Of a stretch of 64,000 nucleotides of DNA, positions 40,022 to 49,670 are shown one piece after another. This DNA is from an uncultured Chloroflexia bacterium (GTDB lineage Bacteria > Chloroflexota > Anaerolineae > Anaerolineales > UBA4823): positions 94,044 to 158,043 of the forward strand of contig CAVZNX010000014.1 of the NCBI GenBank assembly GCA_963776795.1. Direction: 5' to 3'. The notes under the pieces are model-generated. The model had not been told where the DNA came from. It saw only the letters and a program-made list of their open reading frames with translations, and made no database searches. Numbering within the stretch: the first letter of the stretch is position 1; each line of letters starts with the position of its first letter. The translations under genes were made by a program, and so were the position numbers.

Positions 40022-40051
40022 AAAAAAAGCCCCCGACGCATGGTCGGGGGC
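40022..40051 (-). terminator. Strong rho-independent terminator ending the AAA+/vWA operon
   Basis: Minus strand: GCCCCCGAC-CATGC-GTCGGGGGC followed by TTTTTTT, 7 nt after the stop at 40058. Confidence 0.8.
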
Positions 40052-40057
40052 AGAATG

Positions 40058-41632
40058 CTATGCCAGGCTGTACAGCATCTGGCCCAGCTTTTCAGCTAAG
40101 CTTTCCCCATCCTGGCAGTTGACCAGGCGGGTGAACAGCATTTTCAGTTTGGATAGTGTTCCCCTGCCGAGATGGATACCGATCGGTATGAAACCGCCCT
40201 GTTCAAGGCTGCGCAGGTGTGCCTGGGACAGCTCCCAATCAGAAGCACTTTTCGACCTGTAGACCGGTTCACCATCATGGATGATGAGCAGGACACGCAG
40301 GCGTTCAGGCCGCTTGCGCAGCTCTGCTTCCGCCTTACGCAAGCCCCAGTCCAGGTACTCTTTGCTCGCCCAGGCCGTATAGCCTGCGATGAGGGCTTTG
40401 GCAGCTTCCTGGCTGTTGCTCGAAATAGGGACCACTTCAGACACCACCCTTTCGACCGGGATCCGTTCCGGCTGCAGGGATAGGCCACCCCGGTCGAGGT
40501 TATCTTCACCGAAGTAGGCCATGCCAAGAGGGATCCCCGCCTGCATCGCAGCCAGGTAGATGGTCATCAAGGCTTCACGGACCGCGGGTTCATAGAGATT
40601 CATTGAACCGGAACGGTCCACCAGGACGTAGAAAGCCAGGCTGCGGGCTGCTTTTCCTAAGTAAGTGGTGCCAGGTGCGGCGTATCCGGCGTGCGGATCT
40701 CCTGGCGGAAGCTGTACCGGCCATGGTACTCGTGCGGTGCAGGGCGCTGGTCAGGAGCCTGTTCTTTCAAGGCATCAGCCAGGCGTGCAGCATGTGCCTG
40801 GACCCTTTCCTCCAGCTCCAGGTAAGGGGCTGGCTCAAGCGCCTTTTTACTGCTGGGCACAGGTGGCAGGTCGCGGTCTTGCAGGTCACCACCCAGACCG
40901 GGGCTGAGATCGGCAGGTCCCTCTGGGATCGAGCATGGCCTGCCCCCTTTTTTGGGAATTCCACCCGCAGAGATATGCTCCAGGCCAAGGCGAGGCATGG
41001 AGGCGGGTAATGCCTAAGGTTTCCAGGATCTTGCGCCCGGCGGCGATCACCCTGCCGGTATCCGAGGCAGTCCAGGACTGCTCGACCAGGTCCCGGATCT
41101 CCGCCCACAGCTTCTGGCCTTCCTGCGAAACTTTCAGATGGGTGAACATTTCCTGCTCACCGGTGCGCGCATGCGCCCAGCGCCAGGCCAGGCAGCAGGC
41201 ATACGCCTGGAGGTTCGCAGCTGCAGGGACAGCCTTCATGTCGGCATAGATAAAGTCTCCCAGCAAGCGCACCGCTGGTGCGATCCCAGGATAGAGCTTG
41301 CAGATGCCTCGCTCGACACGCTCGTCTTCCAGGATATTCGCGAGTTCCTGCAGGATATTCTCAGACTGGTCCGGCCAATCGCTGGTGAACCAGGCATGCC
41401 CGCATTCATGGGCCAGCAAGCCCTGGGTGAGGCGGAACTGCACATCCACGGGTTGTTCAGGGAACAGCTGCGGGTTGACCTGGATGAGCCGGGTCAGGGG
41501 TGAGTGGGTTCCAGTCCCTTCAGGCTGCAGGCGGATGGTGTAGCGCCGCCCGGAAAGCAGCGCCAGAGCCCATTTGGTGAGCCTCTCGTTGGTGAGGCGC
41601 CAGAGCCACCATAGTTGTCTTTGATCAGCCAT
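40058..41632 (-). pseudogene. HExxH metallopeptidase-like domain fused to a vWA domain (DUF2201-type architecture), 2 frame shifts
   Basis: 40886..41632 has NPQLFPEQP...GLLAHECGHAWFT. The linker is in 40657..40998. Hand translation across 40621 gives LAFYVLVDRSGSM, a MIDAS DxSxS motif, continuing in 40058..40621. The start is 9 nt after the AAA+ stop, with AGGAG. Confidence 0.65.
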
Positions 41633-44947: not shown

Positions 44948-45145
44948 TCACTCCTCTGAAAAAGACTGGTCGTCTTGATACTCCTGAATGGTCTCCTGGA
45001 TGGAAAGCCATTCAGGCATTCGCCTGGGCCTGAAGTATGCCAGGATGTTCTTCCCGGATCGAAGCATCAAAGTGAGCGCCAGGGTCCAGAAGCAGGCGAC
45101 CAGAATCCCTGCCAGGCAGATGAACAGCATTACGGCTTCTCTCAT
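44948..45145 (-). CDS. Small single-pass membrane protein (65 aa)
   Basis: GGAGG RBS 6 nt before the ATG at 45145. MREAVMLFICLAGILVACFWTLALTLMLR. The longer listed ORF (to 45274) would run through a terminator hairpin. Confidence 0.45.
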   Translation of the reverse strand: MREAVMLFICLAGILVACFWTLALTLMLRSGKNILAYFRPRRMPEWLSIQETIQEYQDDQSFSEE

Positions 45146-45237
45146 GGTTGCCTCCAGTGTATTTTTGATATCTTTTTTTACGGTACTGCTGCGAATGGGA
45201 GCATCCCATTCGATGCAGCACAAAATACCCCTTTTCC

Positions 45238-45491
45238 TCAAAAAAGTGGAGAGAGGCGGATGGCCTCTCTCCATGGCGGGGACCGCCGCAGCTCACCAGT
45301 CTCGTCCAGGGATTCAGACCCTCGCAGGAGACTGGATCGCGAAGTCTCCCGACTGACGGGTGTGATCAAACCAGGAGGAGGGATGGAGGTTGCTCTCGCC
45401 CGCAGATGTCATACTCCAGGGCGATAGGTTATCCAGCAGGGATCGAACCTGCTCATGGACGGCATGCGTCCAGTGTGCACCAGCCGGATAA
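45238..45491 (-). ncRNA. Candidate ~250-nt ncRNA: 5' tRNA-like module (45428-45491) plus structured body plus intrinsic terminator (45238-45273)
   Basis: Minus strand: acceptor TTATCCG/TGGATAA (7 bp, one G-U). T-arm GCAGG-TTCGATC-CCTGC. Anticodon-like arm TGGAC-GCATGCC-GTCCA. The D-arm region is only 12 nt. Terminator GGAGAGAGGC-CATCC-GCCTCTCTCC followed by ACTTTTTT. Confidence 0.45.
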
Positions 45492-45527
45492 GGAAATTAA
45501 ATGCGCTGTGATGCTCGGGAATTCTGG

Positions 45528-46316
45528 TTACCGTTTGGTGTACTGGATCAGTTTTTGGGCGACCAGGCACGTCTGGGCATAGGCGGCCCAGACCTCATCG
45601 GGAGCCTGGCCATCGGATAGGTTCGCCAGCACGCTGGCCTGGTGGGCTGCGATCAGGAAGGAACGCAGGTTCTCTGAATAGATACGGCTTCCCAGGGAAC
45701 CTGATACCCGGATGCGATCCTTAAGTTTCAGGATGACAGCCCGCCCGTCCACCCGCTGGTCCAGGAACTGGACCGTCACATAATGGGGTGTCCGCCGTTC
45801 CCGCCCATGGTTGCCAGCTGCAGGGGTGGAGGCGGTGTGCCGGTCGTAAACGGCCAGGCGTAGAAAAAGGTGCCCACCATATTCCCAGACCCTGGCCACC
45901 ACGCCATCGACGCGGGCGAAACTTGCAGGTGAAAACCTGGCCGGATCCAGCAGCTCCAGGGTCTCCGGGACGACACAGGTCACGGAGCGTTTGACCTGGG
46001 CGCTCGAGGCAGCCAGCAGCTCAGGGATGCGTTTGACAAGCTCCTCTTCCCGGGCTTTGAGCAGAAAATCGCGCAGGGTCTCCCACTGGGGGAGGTCATC
46101 CAGGTAGCCAGTGATGTGTAGCGCGTCGCCTTTCAGCAGGCTGACATCCCGCCCACCGACCTGGCCTCCAGGCAGCCTCAGGGTCAGCCGTGGGTCGACC
46201 TGGTTTGGGATGGTGTCCAGCTCTTTTTCTGCATCCGTTGCACCGGTATCGATACGGGCGAAGACATCCCCGGTCGAACGGGACCAGATCTTGGTCACAT
46301 GGCCTGCCAGGTCCAC
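45528..46316 (-). CDS. Double OB-fold SSB-like protein
   Basis: 262 aa with a GTG start. An AAGGAGG ~70 nt upstream suggests a frame-shifted longer N-terminus. Second half: HYVTVQFLDQRVDGRAVILKLKDRIRVSGSLGSRIYSENL, an SSB-like pattern. The first half is analogous (LAGHVTKIW...LLKGDALHITGYL). Confidence 0.4.
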   Translation of the reverse strand: MDLAGHVTKIWSRSTGDVFARIDTGATDAEKELDTIPNQVDPRLTLRLPGGQVGGRDVSLLKGDALHITGYLDDLPQWETLRDFLLKAREEELVKRIPELLAASSAQVKRSVTCVVPETLELLDPARFSPASFARVDGVVARVWEYGGHLFLRLAVYDRHTASTPAAGNHGRERRTPHYVTVQFLDQRVDGRAVILKLKDRIRVSGSLGSRIYSENLRSFLIAAHQASVLANLSDGQAPDEVWAAYAQTCLVAQKLIQYTKR

Positions 46317-46604
46317 CTGGTTGCAGTCATAGCGTTCGGGGGCAGCAGATGGTAATAAATCGTGGGGTGATCAAATCAAAATACCTCCTTGGTGGATCCC
46401 CAGGCAAGCCTTTTCATTGATCGACCTGCCTGGGTCTCAAAAGTAATAATGAACATTACAATGATTGCAATCGCTTGAAAACGGTCTCAATTGTTAAGGT
46501 TCGTGTCATCCTGTAAACAGGTCCACTTGATCAGTGACCTGCCAGATCCTTGAGAGAGGGAAGGCAGGTGGCCTTCCCTCAGGCACGCTGCGCAAGCGGA
46601 CGGG

Positions 46605-47459
46605 TCAGGCAGGCTGCAGCTCGGCCTCGACGAAAGCCAGGTACTTGCGGGCCGCAGCCTGGTCCAGGCGGGCCTGTTCCGTGGCTGGTTTCATTTCATT
46701 CGCATACCAGCGCAGTGCAGCCAGGCCAGCGTCAAGACCGCGCGGGTTCTCCTTGACCAGCCTGTGTAAGCTCCAGCCGGAGTAGGCCTTCCCGTAGCGG
46801 ATCAGGTATGCACCAGGATCTTGATCAGGCTGTACGTCAGGCGCAGGCACGGGTTGCGCGGGGTCGTCAAATCCCAGTTCTTTCAGGATCTCACCTCTCG
46901 ATCTGGGGATCTTAGGACCACTGCCATTGTTCCCATCACCATGCCCGGGGGGATGTGGGCTGTTGCCATTCCCACCCGGTTGAGAGGCTGCACCCAGCAG
47001 CAGGCTGGCATTATGGTGGTCAAGCTGCCCTTTATATACCGGCAGCTGGAAGCACAGCGACTTGAGGGCTGCACCGATCGCGGCCGTGCGCGCCCCTTCT
47101 TCAGCGTAAGCAAAATCATTGGTGTTGGCCCCACCGGTGATGATGGGGTACCAGTTCACCAGGTCCTGCTCGTTGATCAGGGCATAGCTGAAGACTGCGT
47201 ACTTCAGGTGGGCGGTGACCCGCTTGCCCTCACCCAGCCCGATGAACACCATGTCCTCCGGGCTGTATTCCAGCTTCCAACCCAGCCCGCGCAGGCCGAA
47301 GACCTGGGTGGCGCGCTCGATCATGTAGCCGGTGTTGATGTCTGTCAGGTCAGCACCGCCGGGCACACCCCGATAAGCCTGCGGCTCGAAAGGCAGGGCC
47401 AGCCTGTCCACGATCTGGCTGACCGGTATGCCGGTCAGCGAAAAGAGCTTGTCGTTCAT
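46605..47459 (-). CDS. Rad52/22-family single-strand annealing protein (phage recombinase-like)
   Basis: DINTGYMIERATQVFGLRGLGWKLEY parallels the Rad52 [20 protein letters not shown] block. EEGARTAAIGAALKSLCFQL parallels KEAVTDGLKRALRSFG. Gly/Pro-rich linker and C-terminal tail. GGAGG RBS. Confidence 0.55.
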   Translation of the reverse strand: MNDKLFSLTGIPVSQIVDRLALPFEPQAYRGVPGGADLTDINTGYMIERATQVFGLRGLGWKLEYSPEDMVFIGLGEGKRVTAHLKYAVFSYALINEQDLVNWYPIITGGANTNDFAYAEEGARTAAIGAALKSLCFQLPVYKGQLDHHNASLLLGAASQPGGNGNSPHPPGHGDGNNGSGPKIPRSRGEILKELGFDDPAQPVPAPDVQPDQDPGAYLIRYGKAYSGWSLHRLVKENPRGLDAGLAALRWYANEMKPATEQARLDQAAARKYLAFVEAELQPA

Positions 47460-47647
47460 GATTGATTACCTCCTGAGGTAGACCGCCCCTGCAATGAGAG
47501 GCGGTGGATAGGAACACCTCTCGCTGCAAGGATGGAACTGCCTGGCGGATGTCAGGATCTACTCGCCCAGAACTACAGACCGGTATCGTCCGTCTCTTTG
47601 CATGTTAAGGTGCCTTGCGTGATCCGCATCTAGCGGACCGATCGCAG

Positions 47648-47693
47648 TCAACCTCCCGGGACTCGAACCCGGGTTCAGGCCTGCCCGAGGTTG
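47648..47693 (-). ncRNA. tRNA-like minihelix (acceptor stem plus T-arm only) at the 5' end of the Rad52-like gene leader
   Basis: Minus strand: CAACCTC-GGGCAGGCCTGAAC-CCGGG-TTCGAGT-CCCGG-GAGGTTG-A. Perfect 7-bp acceptor, canonical T-loop with the G53-C61 pair. No D arm or anticodon arm. Confidence 0.45.
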
Positions 47694-47871
47694 AATAAGT
47701 TTATATTCCTATCCCAATGCATCGCACTTAAATGACCTGGAAGAAGCGGTTTTGCCATGGCCAGGTTGGCACGGGCGCCTTGGTTATCACCAGACGCAGT
47801 CCCGATCGATCCTGGTAAGACAATATAACCATCCTCTGCCACTTGGTGCACGGCTTTCGGCCATTGCCTGC

Positions 47872-49161
47872 CTACCACTCTTCTATCCATAACGGCGTCT
47901 CCTCGCTAATGTCGGGAACTTTACAGGCGATCAACGTTTCAAGGTCGGTAGCGATCCCATGCAGGTTTTTCAGTTTACAATCCCCGACCAGCCGCGCCCG
48001 GCGCTTCGCATTTCGGGCACACAGCGCGACCCGGCCTTGGAGCTGGGAGAGGTTGCGCCATTTTGCATCCAGTTCCTTGCTGGAGAGCTCCACCTCCACG
48101 AAGGTCGTCTCTGGCGGGCTGCCAGGGAAACAGCGGCTGACAGAGACGTCCGGAACCGCATTGGTCTGCACCGTCTCCAGTTTCGGCAGCACACCCACCT
48201 GGTAGCCGCGGAATCGAGCGTGCATGGCGAAGATCATCAAGGCCAGGGTGTGCTGGGGATACTGCTCACCCTGGTGGTAGCGGTTCACGCGCTGGCGTTC
48301 TGTTTCCACAATATTCCAGCCGAGCACCTGGCACAGCTCACGCCCGTCCTCGGTCAACTGCAGCATCGCCAGCGACGTGTTCGGCGCGCTCATCTCCAGG
48401 ATCTCGATGCTCACGAAATTCTTTGCGACCATGTTGTCATACACCCTCCTCAACGCCCCGGTGCGAGAGCTGATCCCTTCGACCAGGCTGATCAGGTGAT
48501 CGATCTCCAGGCGGACATCCAGGCCACGCGCCAGCAGGTAGACCACGTACAGCTTGCGGCGTACCTGGCGCTCCTGGTCGGTCCCGGTCATCCTGGGTTG
48601 CTGAAAATGGTTCTGGAAACGCGCCGGGAGGGTCGAGGGAAGCCTGAGGCTGCGCAGTTCAGCTAGCAGCTCATGGTGGATGAAAGCCTGGCCCATCGTA
48701 TCGATCCTTTCCAGCCCAGGAGCCTGAGGACTCCGGAGCACAGGATCCTGATCCAGGGGATCTGGTGGCTGATCACCGGTTGGCTGAACGCTACCTATCC
48801 AGCTGTTATTGCTAACGACCGGCTTATGATCACCGGATACCAGATGGGCTAGTTTTTCCTTGAGGGCCTGGTTCTCGCGTGTCAACCGTTCGAGTTCAAT
48901 GGGCGCGCTTGCATTCCATCCTTCCAGACCTGGTGCTACAGGCAGGCTGTTATAGAATCTCCGCCACTCATCAGGCCCCCAGCTTTCCGGGGCATACGGG
49001 TCGGCGCGCCTGATCTCTTCGATCTGTGGACCCGCAAGCCGTTGGGCCTGCTCGGTCAGGACACTGCGGAATTCCCGCAGGGCATTTTCGGCCTGCTGGC
49101 GGAAATGGCGTTCGGCGTCCAGCAGGTCATCCAGGGCATTGCTGCGCACATCACCAGGCAT
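47872..49161 (-). CDS. Coiled-coil / wHTH / PD-(D/E)xK-like nuclease-fold protein (replication-relaxation-like?)
   Basis: 429 aa. GAGG RBS before the ATG at 49161. Predicted wHTH region RKLYVVYLLARGLDVRLEIDHLISLVEGIS...LQLTEDGRELCQVLG. Then HTLALMIFAM...VPDVSV...TFVEVELSSKE, which could be a D...ExE/K nuclease motif. Confidence 0.35.
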   Translation of the reverse strand: MPGDVRSNALDDLLDAERHFRQQAENALREFRSVLTEQAQRLAGPQIEEIRRADPYAPESWGPDEWRRFYNSLPVAPGLEGWNASAPIELERLTRENQALKEKLAHLVSGDHKPVVSNNSWIGSVQPTGDQPPDPLDQDPVLRSPQAPGLERIDTMGQAFIHHELLAELRSLRLPSTLPARFQNHFQQPRMTGTDQERQVRRKLYVVYLLARGLDVRLEIDHLISLVEGISSRTGALRRVYDNMVAKNFVSIEILEMSAPNTSLAMLQLTEDGRELCQVLGWNIVETERQRVNRYHQGEQYPQHTLALMIFAMHARFRGYQVGVLPKLETVQTNAVPDVSVSRCFPGSPPETTFVEVELSSKELDAKWRNLSQLQGRVALCARNAKRRARLVGDCKLKNLHGIATDLETLIACKVPDISEETPLWIEEW

Positions 49162-49670
49162 GGACCGCCTCGCATCCGGGGAGGAGTTTTCTGTTCATCG
49201 AAGAGGGCTCTAACATACGCAGAGCTAGGCACAGGGGTTCCTTGTGGCGCTGGTGGTGCAGACAGGCTGTGCAGCGCTTCATCCAGGGCTTCCAGAGCAG
49301 ATGCCCTTGTTGCGGCTCCGACGGACCAGGCGCTGACCGCCTGTGCCGCGAGGGCCAGTTTTTCCCGTTGATACTCCAGGGAAGGCTGGCCCTCGCTTGT
49401 ATGGCGCAGGATACGCTCCACAGCCAGCTGGGCGCGCACCGGGTCAGGCCCGGCATTGAGCAGTTCAGCCAGCGTTTCAGCTTCCACCTGCAGGTCCTTG
49501 AGCTCTCTCCCGTACAGGCGGCGTGCCTTCAGGACCTGCCATTCTGAACGGGTCAGGAGCCGGTCGCCTGAAGGCTGGTAGGCATGACCCAGGTAGCCCA
49601 GGCAAGCCAGGAGGAGGATGGCTGCCAGGCAGACCAGGGGAATGCGGAGTTCAGAAAGGTCAAGTTCCAT
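49056..49670 (-). CDS. Single-pass membrane protein with an Ala-rich helical ectodomain
   Basis: The ATG at 49670 (MELDLSELRIPLVCLAAILLLACLGYL) is 5 nt after the upstream stop. The 3' end overlaps the next gene by ~105 nt, so the true stop may differ (possible frame shift). Confidence 0.35.
   Translation of the reverse strand: MELDLSELRIPLVCLAAILLLACLGYLGHAYQPSGDRLLTRSEWQVLKARRLYGRELKDLQVEAETLAELLNAGPDPVRAQLAVERILRHTSEGQPSLEYQREKLALAAQAVSAWSVGAATRASALEALDEALHSLSAPPAPQGTPVPSSAYVRALFDEQKTPPRMRGGPCLVMCAAMPWMTCWTPNAISASRPKMPCGNSAVS

What the first reader, a model, noticed from the sequence alone, without database searches (positions are those of the whole stretch)
47460..47693. Second, different tRNA-like minihelix heading the 230-nt leader of the Rad52-like recombinase gene
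Seen on the minus strand: CAACCTC-(14 nt)-CCGGG-TTCGAGT-CCCGG-GAGGTTG-A (47648-47693).
- The 7-bp acceptor stem is perfect and the T-arm is canonical (G53-C61, TTCGAGT loop).
- There is no D arm or anticodon arm.
- A structured-looking ~190-nt leader follows, ending in an ACCGCC...GGCGGT hairpin next to the GGAGG RBS.
- The sequence is unrelated to the first tRNA-like element, but it occupies the equivalent position, an intercistronic gap in the same transcription direction.

A chance exact 7-nt complement placed correctly around a T-arm is unlikely.

Inference: it may be an acceptor/T-arm minihelix (minimal substrate for RNase P, the CCA-adding enzyme or EF-Tu-type recognition). Alternatively it is a remnant attP/att-type tRNA 3' fragment that happens to be closed by a complement.
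Basis: partly seen in the sequence, partly recalled or inferred. Interest (0 to 1): 0.6.

Follow-up and report, generated by a model that had tools for sequence, protein, structure and literature searches.

The report
tRNA-mimic three-way junction heading recombinase leader
A 46-base RNA fold that copies the top half of a tRNA is real and conserved at the front of the untranslated leader of a Rad52-like recombination gene on an accessory island of an Anaerolineae bacterium. It most likely marks where tRNA-trimming enzymes cut the multi-gene message, but no RNA data show this yet.

Summary
Window 47648-47693 (minus strand) carries the described acceptor-like stem and T arm.

- **Chance:** this design occurs only twice in the 64-kb window, both times in the same gene block. 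Only 2 of 100 shuffled windows had any.
- **Structure:** ten related Chloroflexota metagenome or MAG loci show it is a compact three-way junction: P1 of 6-7 bp, a 4-bp mini-hairpin inside the "14-nt linker", and a 5-6-bp T stem with a 7-nt T loop. P1 plus the T stem total 12 bp, as in tRNA.
- **Selection:** about 95% of cells are paired and each helix shows compensatory changes. Mean identity is 0.85, against 0.60 at fourfold sites of the adjacent gene and 0.43 in the 5' flank.
- **Context:** it opens a conserved structured leader of about 230 nt that is absent from Rfam.
- **att relic not supported:** no host tRNA, and none in 400 sampled Anaerolineae genomes, shares its 3' half. It is single copy, and contig C14, which holds the window, has no tRNA gene.
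- **Relatives:** they put another tRNA-like fold or a long hairpin in the same slot. A second T-loop element closes the recombinase unit.

Best reading (about 0.4, inferred): a t-element-like punctuation and end-defining signal for RNase P and RNase Z. This scan has noted comparable tRNA top-half mimics on other DNA.

The parts
47648..47693 (-). tRNA-mimic three-way junction (46 nt). P1 is 47693-47688 paired with 47654-47649. The P2 mini-hairpin is 47687-47676. The CA/AA joint is 47675-47674. The P3 T arm is 47673-47655, with the T loop UUCGAGU at 47667-47661. The unpaired A ('discriminator') is 47648.
   Evidence: Sequence; RNAalifold consensus; pair counts; covariance model R1 scores 53-78 bits in 11 loci.
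47616..47646 (-). P4 hairpin. The UGCG/CGCA closing stem encloses a variable inner hairpin, which is longer in L007, L009, L013 and L020.
   Evidence: The inner stem changes sequence and length while keeping its pairing.
47590..47614 (-). Block A, GGCACCUUAACAUGCAAAGAGACGG. It is nearly invariant (mean pairwise identity 0.97) and contains ACCUUAACA.
   Evidence: The motif recurs in other leaders.
47486..47531 (-). Long hairpin of blocks B and C: CCUUGCAG-GAGAGGUG ... CCGCCUCUC-UUGCAGGG. It overlaps the alternative local hairpin ACCGCC/GGCGGU (47505-47482).
   Evidence: The inner stem is GAGAGG/CCUCUC here, GACAG.GGC/GCC.CUGUC in the main clade and GCAGGAGG-type in distant relatives.
47467..47480 (-). 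Small hairpin UACCU-CAGG-AGGUA that holds part of the Shine-Dalgarno GGAGG (47473-47469). The start codon is 47459-47457.
   Evidence: The stems are nearly invariant and the loop varies.
47694..47871 (-). Variable spacer between the stop of the 429-aa gene and the junction. It has no homolog in relatives. The 71-aa ORF that overlaps it is not conserved.
   Evidence: The 5'-flank identity is 0.43.
46605..47459 (-). Rad52/Mgm101-like single-strand annealing protein gene (284 aa), served by the leader.
   Evidence: AF2 model with pLDDT 68. All top Foldseek PDB hits are RAD52 or Mgm101, E about 1e-3, probability 0.95-1.0. Pfam finds nothing.
45428..45491 (-). Partner T-loop tRNA-like element (the 'first element'), 36 nt after the stop of the 262-aa OB-fold gene. 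With the junction it brackets the Rad52-like plus OB-fold gene pair.
   Evidence: Homologs lie at the same place in L007, L009, L011, L023, L024 and L025.

Best explanation
**What it is.** The element is a reduced tRNA mimic written into a polycistronic transcript of an accessory island. It works like a t-element.

**Proposed steps.**
1. On the sense RNA, P1 stacks on the T stem to give the 12-bp helix capped by a T loop that RNase P measures, and that RNase Z also accepts.
2. RNase P would cut between U47694 and C47693. This separates the 429-aa cistron from the recombination cistrons.
3. The Rad52-like mRNA would then carry a fully paired 5' end, so the same fold would also protect that 5' end.
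4. RNase Z may additionally cut after A47648. That would release a 46-nt tRNA-like RNA.
5. The partner T-loop element after the OB-fold gene would define the other end of the unit.

**Shown.** The fold exists, is conserved and covaries on the sense strand. It has a sharp conservation boundary at C1. The slot and the two-element arrangement are conserved. The host has RNase P RNA and an RNase Z-like gene.

**Inferred.** Co-transcription, every cleavage, and the stabilising effect are inferred.
For: - **Geometry.** The stack is 6+6 or 7+5 = 12 bp. The 7-nt loop has U54, A58 and G53-C61 invariant in 11 leaders.
- **Pairing and covariation.**
  - On the MAFFT alignment, 94.9% of cells are paired, against 24-53% when the partners are slid, and two pairs change on both sides. 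On the model-fitted alignment five pairs do.
  - G-U pairs occur on the sense strand only.
- **Constraint.** Mean identity is 0.85 in the junction, 0.60 at fourfold sites, 0.43 in the 10 nt upstream and 0.34 in the variable hairpin. Conservation therefore starts exactly at C1.
- **No promoter.** The scan finds no sigma-70-like promoter between the 429-aa gene and the junction. The spacer ranges from 18 nt (L020) to more than 240 nt.
- **Slot equivalence.**
  - L003 (37% aa identity) has a different cloverleaf-like T-loop fold at the same place.
  - L023 keeps the junction, with a compensatory change in the T stem.
  - L015, L024 and L025 have a 16-25-bp hairpin there.
- **Bracketing.**
  - T-loop elements lie only in intergenic gaps and only on the sense strand.
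  - They sit at p429|Rad52 and OB262|mem66 in the main clade (mem66 is the small membrane-protein gene at 44948-45145).
  - They sit at p429|Rad52 and Rad52|OB262 in L003.
- **Upstream hairpin.** In relatives a stable hairpin ends 8-9 nt before C1.
- **Enzymes and precedent.**
  - The host has RNase P RNA and an RNase Z-like gene.
  - Acceptor/T-stem/T-loop hairpins are efficient RNase P model substrates, and mRNAs including T4 gene 32 are RNase P substrates (PMC11143913).
  - t-elements direct RNase P and RNase Z cuts in plant mitochondria and Haloferax (PMC1920247; PMC4326828).
Against: - No RNA ends are known. No RNA run holds the stretch, and three same-study metatranscriptome contig sets laid nothing.
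- There is no 3' RCCA. The sequence after the stem is A-C-U-G, and the P4 helix starts 2 nt after the unpaired A. That could hinder RNase Z.
- Position +1 is C rather than G.
- Four relatives have UCCGAGU in the loop, with C at position 55.
- In L003 the closing helix continues beyond 11 bp.
- The junction is fused to a strongly conserved leader, so it may be an integral structural domain rather than a cleavage signal.
- The element is absent from many more distant homologous loci.
Confidence: 0.4

Rival explanations
1. The junction is an uncut structural domain of a cis-regulatory leader RNA. The T loop would serve as a tertiary-contact or protein-docking module. The leader would control translation of the Rad52-like gene by switching between alternative pairings: block A with block B, block B with block C, the local hairpin in block C, and the hairpin that holds the Shine-Dalgarno sequence. 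The switch might respond to binding of the annealing protein itself, as T4 gene 32 protein regulates its own mRNA.
For: - The whole leader of about 230 nt is conserved. Block A has identity 0.97.
- The predicted helices are 95% paired.
- Mutually exclusive pairings are conserved with compensatory differences between clades.
- The Shine-Dalgarno sequence lies in a conserved small hairpin.
- ACCUURACA could pair with GGAGGU, and it recurs in several leaders.
- T loops are common tertiary modules in structured RNAs (own knowledge).
Against: - The 5' module is swappable. A long hairpin replaces it in L015, L024, L025 and L044 while the core stays. A different cloverleaf-like fold fills the slot in L003.
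- No covariation links the junction to the downstream leader.
- A second T-loop element lies in a 3' untranslated position, where no such leader follows.
Confidence: 0.3
2. The released 46-nt tRNA-like RNA is itself the product. It would be a small RNA that acts in trans, for example as a decoy or inhibitor of enzymes or defence toxins that recognise the acceptor/T-arm half of tRNA.
For: - The island block looks like an establishment or anti-defence region: SSB-like proteins, an annealase, and a CobS/CobT-like pair (note e1-3112538).
- The sequence of the P2 hairpin and the joint is more conserved than pairing alone requires.
Against: - There is no evidence that the RNA is released or accumulates.
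- There is no anticodon arm, so it cannot mimic the target of anticodon nucleases.
- The slot is filled by plain hairpins in some relatives.
Confidence: 0.08
3. The element acts as single-stranded DNA. It would be a folded signal on a transferred or replicating strand, such as an ssDNA promoter, a priming site or a nick site of a conjugative-type element.
For: - The gene content resembles leading regions of conjugative elements (note e1-3112538).
- The structure is strand-specific.
Against: - No relaxase or transfer genes were identified next to it.
- No -10/-35 pair is formed by the stems.
- The invariant T-loop positions and the G-U-tolerant covariation fit an RNA motif better.
- No homolog of the Rad52-like protein is found in plasmid or phage records.
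Confidence: 0.07
4. The element is a decayed tRNA gene or an att-type tRNA 3' fragment with no present function, or a chance match.
For: - The host genome does hold tRNA-derived fragments: tRNA-Glu-linked repeats and a duplicated tRNA-Ser 3' fragment.
- The homolog of the partner element in L025 is still called a tRNA by ARAGORN.
Against: - No tRNA shares the 3' half in the host, nor within 2 or fewer mismatches in 400 class-level genomes.
- The element is single copy.
- It shows purifying selection and compensatory changes.
- Only 2% of shuffles give any such design.
Confidence: 0.05

Closest known systems
t-elements: tRNA-like processing signals of plant mitochondrial mRNAs, and the element upstream of Haloferax volcanii 5S rRNA (PMC1920247; PMC4326828)
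   Same: - A partial tRNA fold with the GGTTCRANYCC T-arm motif sits in untranslated or intergenic RNA.
- It is proposed, or there shown, to direct RNase P and RNase Z cuts that make mRNA ends.
- Elements can flank the RNA that is released.
   Different: - This one lies on a bacterial accessory island.
- It is reduced to a three-way junction with a 4-bp mini-hairpin.
- It is fused to a conserved regulatory-looking leader.
- No transcript ends are mapped.
Acceptor-stem/T-stem/T-loop model substrate of bacterial RNase P (McClain, Guerrier-Takada and Altman 1987, as reviewed in PMC11143913)
   Same: A 12-bp coaxial helix capped by a T loop, with single-stranded 5' leader.
   Different: - A 12-nt hairpin plus a 2-nt joint is inserted between the two stems.
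- There is no 3' RCCA.
- The first pair is C1-G72.
mascRNA/menRNA tRNA-like small RNAs (Rfam RF01684)
   Same: A three-armed tRNA-like fold that is cut out of a longer transcript by RNase P and RNase Z. It is the best Rfam match here.
   Different: - That family is vertebrate and nuclear.
- The score here is 25 bits against a gathering score of 42.5, so this is resemblance of shape only.
tRNA genes embedded in bacterial mRNA operons (for example secG-leuU, PMC2241853) and the mitochondrial tRNA punctuation model
   Same: A tRNA-shaped unit between cistrons makes RNase P separate the messages.
   Different: This unit cannot be a working tRNA, because it has no anticodon or D arm.
T4 gene 32 mRNA (an RNase P substrate per PMC11143913; its leader is bound by its own ssDNA-binding product, from own knowledge)
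   Same: A structured 5' leader of a recombination or ssDNA-handling gene on a mobile genome.
   Different: There is no sequence or fold relation, and autoregulation here is only a conjecture.

Membership tests
Functional tRNA gene | Cloverleaf with D arm, anticodon arm with a 7-nt loop, and T arm; detected by a tRNA finder | tested here: not met
   ARAGORN finds 0 genes in the window. Only a 4-bp hairpin with a 4-5-nt loop lies between the acceptor and T stems.
Rfam RF01684 mascRNA-menRNA | Score at or above the gathering threshold of 42.5 bits | tested here: not met
   25 bits, E 0.24.
Any Rfam 15 family (whole leader) | A match at the gathering score | tested here: not met
   No match in the window at 40-55 kb at E up to 10, other than chance-level hits. 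Fifteen related loci give only a group II intron.
t-element (tRNA-like mRNA processing signal) | Partial tRNA fold containing the T-arm motif GGTTCRANYCC, closed by an acceptor-like stem | tested here: met
   The window has GGTTCGAGTCC. Four relatives read GGTCCGAGTCC.
t-element (tRNA-like mRNA processing signal) | Lies in the sense strand of an untranslated or intercistronic part of a transcript | tested here: met
   It lies between the 429-aa gene and the Rad52-like gene in all loci, on the same strand. Transcription itself is not shown.
t-element (tRNA-like mRNA processing signal) | Transcript ends coincide with the borders of the fold; cleavage by RNase P and/or RNase Z | not testable with these tools
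   No RNA holder was listed, and nothing was laid from three runs.
att-site tRNA fragment of an integrated element | Identity with the 3' part of a tRNA gene of the host or of relatives | tested here: not met
   None of the 50 host tRNAs or the tmRNA matches. Among 400 class-level genomes there are no matches with 2 or fewer mismatches, and the 7 matches with 3 mismatches look like chance, as the reversed control pattern matched in 2. IMG/VR gives 0.
att-site tRNA fragment of an integrated element | A second copy (direct repeat) at the other end of the island, or an adjacent tRNA gene | tested here: not met
   It is single copy in the genome. There is no tRNA in the window or on contig C14.
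RNase P minimal substrate | 12-bp acceptor/T coaxial stack with a T loop | tested here: met
   6+6 or 7+5 bp, conserved.
RNase P minimal substrate | 3' RCCA that pairs with the P15 loop of type A RNase P RNA | tested here: not met
   The 3' side reads A-C/A/U-U-G-C-G. Many bacterial pre-tRNAs also lack an encoded CCA (own knowledge).

The most novel reading that the evidence does not exclude
A family of accessory islands in Chloroflexota punctuates its recombination operon with stripped-down tRNA mimics. The forms are a three-way junction, cloverleaf-like folds and a near-tRNA. Host RNase P and RNase Z would therefore excise the Rad52-like and OB-fold message as a unit capped by a tRNA-like 5' end. 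This would be a bacterial counterpart of mitochondrial tRNA punctuation and of archaeal and plant t-elements. The released 46-nt mimic might have a function of its own.
Probability: 0.35. Interest if true: 0.7.

Novelty: new variant of a known kind. Interest (0 to 1): 0.55.

Why it matters
If the cuts occur, tRNA-processing enzymes would be a general way for bacterial mobile elements to divide and stabilise long transcripts. So far that idea rests on organelles, haloarchaea and a few E. coli operons.

The element is small, sharply bounded and testable in vitro. It could also serve as a portable processing signal.

Independently of that, the leader of about 230 nt is a conserved structured RNA in front of a single-strand annealing protein gene. 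It is absent from Rfam and is a candidate new cis-regulator.

Tried and rejected
**Searches that returned nothing or could not run**
- **RNA evidence:** no RNA holder was listed for window 45200-48200. Laying three same-study metatranscriptome contig sets on 45200-49200 gave nothing.
- **Viral contigs:** IMG/VR has no exact 23-mer and no protein relative.
- **Known plasmids and phages:** no tblastn match to the Rad52-like protein.
- **Protein sequence methods:** a PDB sequence profile and Pfam gave nothing for the Rad52-like protein. Only the fold search did.

**Readings tested and dropped**
- **att hypothesis:** tested and rejected.
- **Block A as a promoter:** the TTAACA/TTGACA in block A has no conserved -10 at 16-18 nt. 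The GG...GC spacing is one base too long for sigma-54, and distant relatives lack it (reading; scan).
- **Promoter just upstream of the junction:** there is a TATAAA 7 nt before C1 in the window only. It is not conserved.
- **Ribozyme in the slot:** no self-cleaving ribozyme appears in relatives.
- **ORF71 (47675-47890):** not conserved.
- **Other copies:** none of the junction or leader in the host genome.
- **Other gaps of the block:** the intergenic gaps 46317-46604 and 44601-44947 fold well but hold no T-loop element.

Full report
**1. Observation**

- On the minus strand, 47693-47648 reads CAACCTC GGGCAGGCCTGAAC CCGGG TTCGAGT CCCGG GAGGTTG A.
- ARAGORN finds no tRNA in the window.
- A permissive Rfam scan of 40-55 kb gives only a sub-threshold shape match to mascRNA-menRNA: 25 bits against a gathering score of 42.5, E 0.24.
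- I wrote a scan for the design: a G53-C61 T stem of 5-6 bp, a loop T[TC]C[AG]AN[TC], then at once a 6-7-nt strand whose complement lies within 90 nt upstream.
  - It hits two places in 64 kb, this one and 45428-45491. Both are on the minus strand of one gene block.
  - Only 2 of 100 dinucleotide shuffles give any hit.

**2. Where it lies**

- The window is G000:C14:94044-158043 of a 4.76-Mb, 23-contig genome.
- Related loci come from Anaerolineaceae and other Chloroflexota MAGs.
- The block at 40-50 kb has GC of about 0.6, inside flanks of 0.40-0.45.
- Neither the leader DNA nor the downstream protein is found in 21 same-genus genomes searched.
- The genes run on the minus strand in this order:
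  - a 429-aa gene (49161-47872);
  - a 412-nt gap that holds the element;
  - a 284-aa gene (47459-46605);
  - a 262-aa OB-fold gene (46316-45528);
  - the other tRNA-like element (45491-45428), with a terminator-like hairpin at 45273-45247;
  - a small membrane-protein gene;
  - an SSB-like gene.
- The 284-aa protein has no Pfam or PDB sequence match.
  - An AlphaFold model (pLDDT 68) finds only RAD52 and Mgm101 chains at the top of a Foldseek search of the PDB, with E about 1e-3 and probability 0.95-1.0.
  - 'Rad52-like' is therefore supported at fold level.
- No plasmid or phage record encodes a relative, and none is found in IMG/VR.

**3. Conservation and structure**

- The protein has more than 100 metagenomic homologs.
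- Fifteen metagenome loci and six MAG loci could be read.
- In every locus with 66-77% protein identity that includes the upstream region, the junction and the whole leader are present. These loci are L005, L006, L007/8/12, L009/10, L011, L013/22, L014, L018 and L020.
- RNAalifold on the MAFFT alignment shows a three-way junction rather than a bare minihelix:
  - P1 of 6 bp, CAACCY/RGGUUG;
  - directly next to it, a 4-bp hairpin P2, CAGG-loop-CCUG;
  - a 2-nt joint;
  - a 6-bp P3 with the 7-nt T loop.
- The base after the T stem pairs either with position 7 (7+5) or with the base before the T stem (6+6). Both give 12 stacked pairs, the tRNA value.
- Pair counts on the MAFFT alignment: 94.9% of cells are paired, against 24-53% for slid partners. 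Compensatory series are C-G/U-A/U-G at P1 pair 6 and G-C/C-G/A-U/G-U at the outer P3 pair.
- On the model-fitted alignment, five pairs change on both sides.
  - They include A-U/C-G/G-U in P2 and C-G/U-A in the T stem of L023.
  - That alignment leans towards the model and contains one antisense row.
- U54, A58 and G53-C61 never vary. Positions 55 (U/C), 57 (G/A) and 60 (U/C) do vary.
- All G-U pairs are on the sense strand.
- Mean pairwise identity by region:

| Region | Identity |
|---|---|
| Junction | 0.85 |
| Block A | 0.97 |
| Fourfold-degenerate sites, first 450 nt of the gene | 0.60 |
| 10 nt upstream of the junction | 0.43 |
| Variable hairpin | 0.34 |

- The conserved unit therefore starts exactly at C1.
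- The spacer upstream is 18 nt in L020. It is about 180 nt of unrelated sequence in the window, where the 71-aa ORF has no homolog. In other relatives it is 190-250 nt of hairpins, the last ending 8-9 nt before C1.

**4. The att and tRNA-relic idea**

- None of the 50 tRNAs or the tmRNA of the host has this 3' half.
The seven 3-mismatch hits look like chance, since the reversed control pattern matched in two genomes.
- The element and the leader are single copy.
- Contig C14 has no tRNA gene.
- Together with covariation of the 5' strand, this rejects the att remnant.

**5. The slot in more distant relatives**

- L023 (47% aa identity) keeps P1, P2 and a compensated T stem (CUGGG/CCCAG), but its loop is no longer a T loop.
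- L015, L024, L025 and L044 (42-59% for the first three; L044 identity not measured) have a 16-25-bp hairpin in the slot, followed by the same core, GGCACCUUGACA....
- L003 (37%, another family of the order) has a different four-way, cloverleaf-like fold there. It has a GGCAGG-UUCGACU-CCUGCC T arm, and block A follows after 11 nt.
- A scan of all loci finds T-loop elements only in intergenic gaps and only on the sense strand:
  - p429|Rad52 and OB262|mem66 in the main clade (mem66 is the small membrane-protein gene);
  - p429|Rad52 and Rad52|OB262 in L003;
  - downstream of Rad52 in L046.
- The L025 homolog of the partner element is still scored as a tRNA by ARAGORN, although its acceptor stem is poor.
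- Six further homologous loci of the order have neither element.

**6. The leader**

- After the junction come, in order:
  - a hairpin whose inner part varies in sequence and length (P4);
  - the nearly invariant block A;
  - a variable hairpin;
  - block B, which can pair with A (UGCAA/UUGCA and GAGACGG/CCGUCUC) or with the 5' half of block C;
  - a local hairpin in block C;
  - a small hairpin that holds part of GGAGG.
- The window itself has GAGAGGUG/CCGCCUCUC where the main clade has GACAG.GGC/GCC.CUGUC, and it lacks the GAGACGG partner.
- ACCUURACA recurs in the leader of the next gene (46492-46500), and in L023, L003, L044 and L049.
- I could not turn block A into a promoter. No conserved -10 is present and the sigma-54 spacing is off by one (reading; scan).
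- This is a conserved structured RNA without an Rfam family.

**7. Mechanism**

- The most economical reading is a t-element-like signal.
  - The host has type A RNase P RNA (245 bits).
  - It also has a full-length RNase Z-like gene just under the curated cut-off (288 against 293 bits).
  - Acceptor/T-stem/T-loop hairpins are efficient RNase P substrates, and mRNAs are known substrates (PMC11143913).
  - t-elements make mRNA and rRNA ends in plant mitochondria and Haloferax, and they work when placed on both sides of an RNA (PMC1920247; PMC4326828).
- Four points fit a boundary-making function:
  - the sharp conservation edge at C1;
  - the variable spacer with a hairpin just upstream;
  - the replacement by long hairpins, which are candidate sites for a different nuclease, or by other tRNA-like folds;
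  - the bracketing by a second element.
- They fit that function better than a role inside a ligand-binding core.
- Nothing shows cleavage. There is no RCCA, and the next helix starts 2 nt after the unpaired A.
- An uncut structural or protein-docking domain of a translational regulator remains a serious rival. I put the two readings at 0.4 and 0.3.

**8. Comparison and novelty**

- It works like a t-element. It is not a tRNA, not an Rfam family member and not an att fragment (see the membership table).
- I found no description of such elements on bacterial accessory islands in three literature searches.
- Earlier notes of this scan report comparable tRNA top-half mimics between genes of phages and plasmids on other DNA, and the partner element on this window. 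They are unverified and were used only as leads.
- I rate it a new variant of a known kind, with moderate interest. It is limited by the lack of any RNA evidence.

No claim in this report rests on genome G447, which is marked unpublished. It gave only a 3-mismatch chance-level hit.

Noticed in passing
Own genome G000:C18:1600806-1601259 and C18:941674-941939 (outside the window): Tandem repeats of about 101 nt lie directly downstream of tRNA-Glu(ctc) (5 units) and tRNA-Glu(ttc) (3 units). Each unit is a closed mini tRNA-like fold of about 51 nt (a CCCCC strand, a short hairpin, then a copy of the tRNA-Glu T arm and 3' acceptor strand). A terminator-like hairpin with a U run follows.
   Followed up: partly
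Own genome G000:C12:9014-9064 and C18:557037-557087: Two identical copies of a tRNA-Ser-like 3' fragment (variable arm, T arm, acceptor 3' strand). They may be the att pair of another integrated element.
   Followed up: no
window 46492-46500 (-) and 47603-47611 (-); L023:5886 and 7123; L003:2128-2136; L044; L049: The motif ACCUURACA, within GCACCUUAACAAYUGA-like blocks, recurs in leaders of different genes of these islands, down to relatives with 37% protein identity. Its role is unknown; it could pair with GGAGGU.
   Followed up: partly
L005:3587-3770, L011:1874-2063, L014:1897-2059, L018:862-1044, L009:3490-3741, L007:3510-3761: Relatives carry a conserved 160-250-nt spacer of hairpins between the 429-aa gene and the junction. 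One hairpin follows the stop codon and has several compensatory pairs. Another ends 8-9 nt before the junction. The spacer is absent from the window and from L020.
   Followed up: partly
L025:8646-8716: The homolog of the window's first tRNA-like element is called tRNA-Thr(cgt) by ARAGORN. It has a full cloverleaf but a poor acceptor stem. This hints that these elements descend from tRNA genes.
   Followed up: partly
L021:1044-1120: A group II intron (RF00029, 69 bits), with a reverse-transcriptase/HNH reading frame upstream, lies next to or in the start of the Rad52-like gene of one MAG.
   Followed up: no
window 46317-46604 (-): The 288-nt gap before the OB-fold gene folds unusually well (z = -3.85). 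It contains a strong AAGGAGGU followed by a 15-codon reading frame that ends just before the GTG start of the 262-aa ORF listed. This may be a leader peptide, or the start may be misplaced.
   Followed up: no
window 40022-40128 (-): A terminator-like RNA gives a sub-threshold Rfam match to anti-hemB (26.6 bits against 49.5, E 0.011). It is probably just a strong intrinsic terminator.
   Followed up: no
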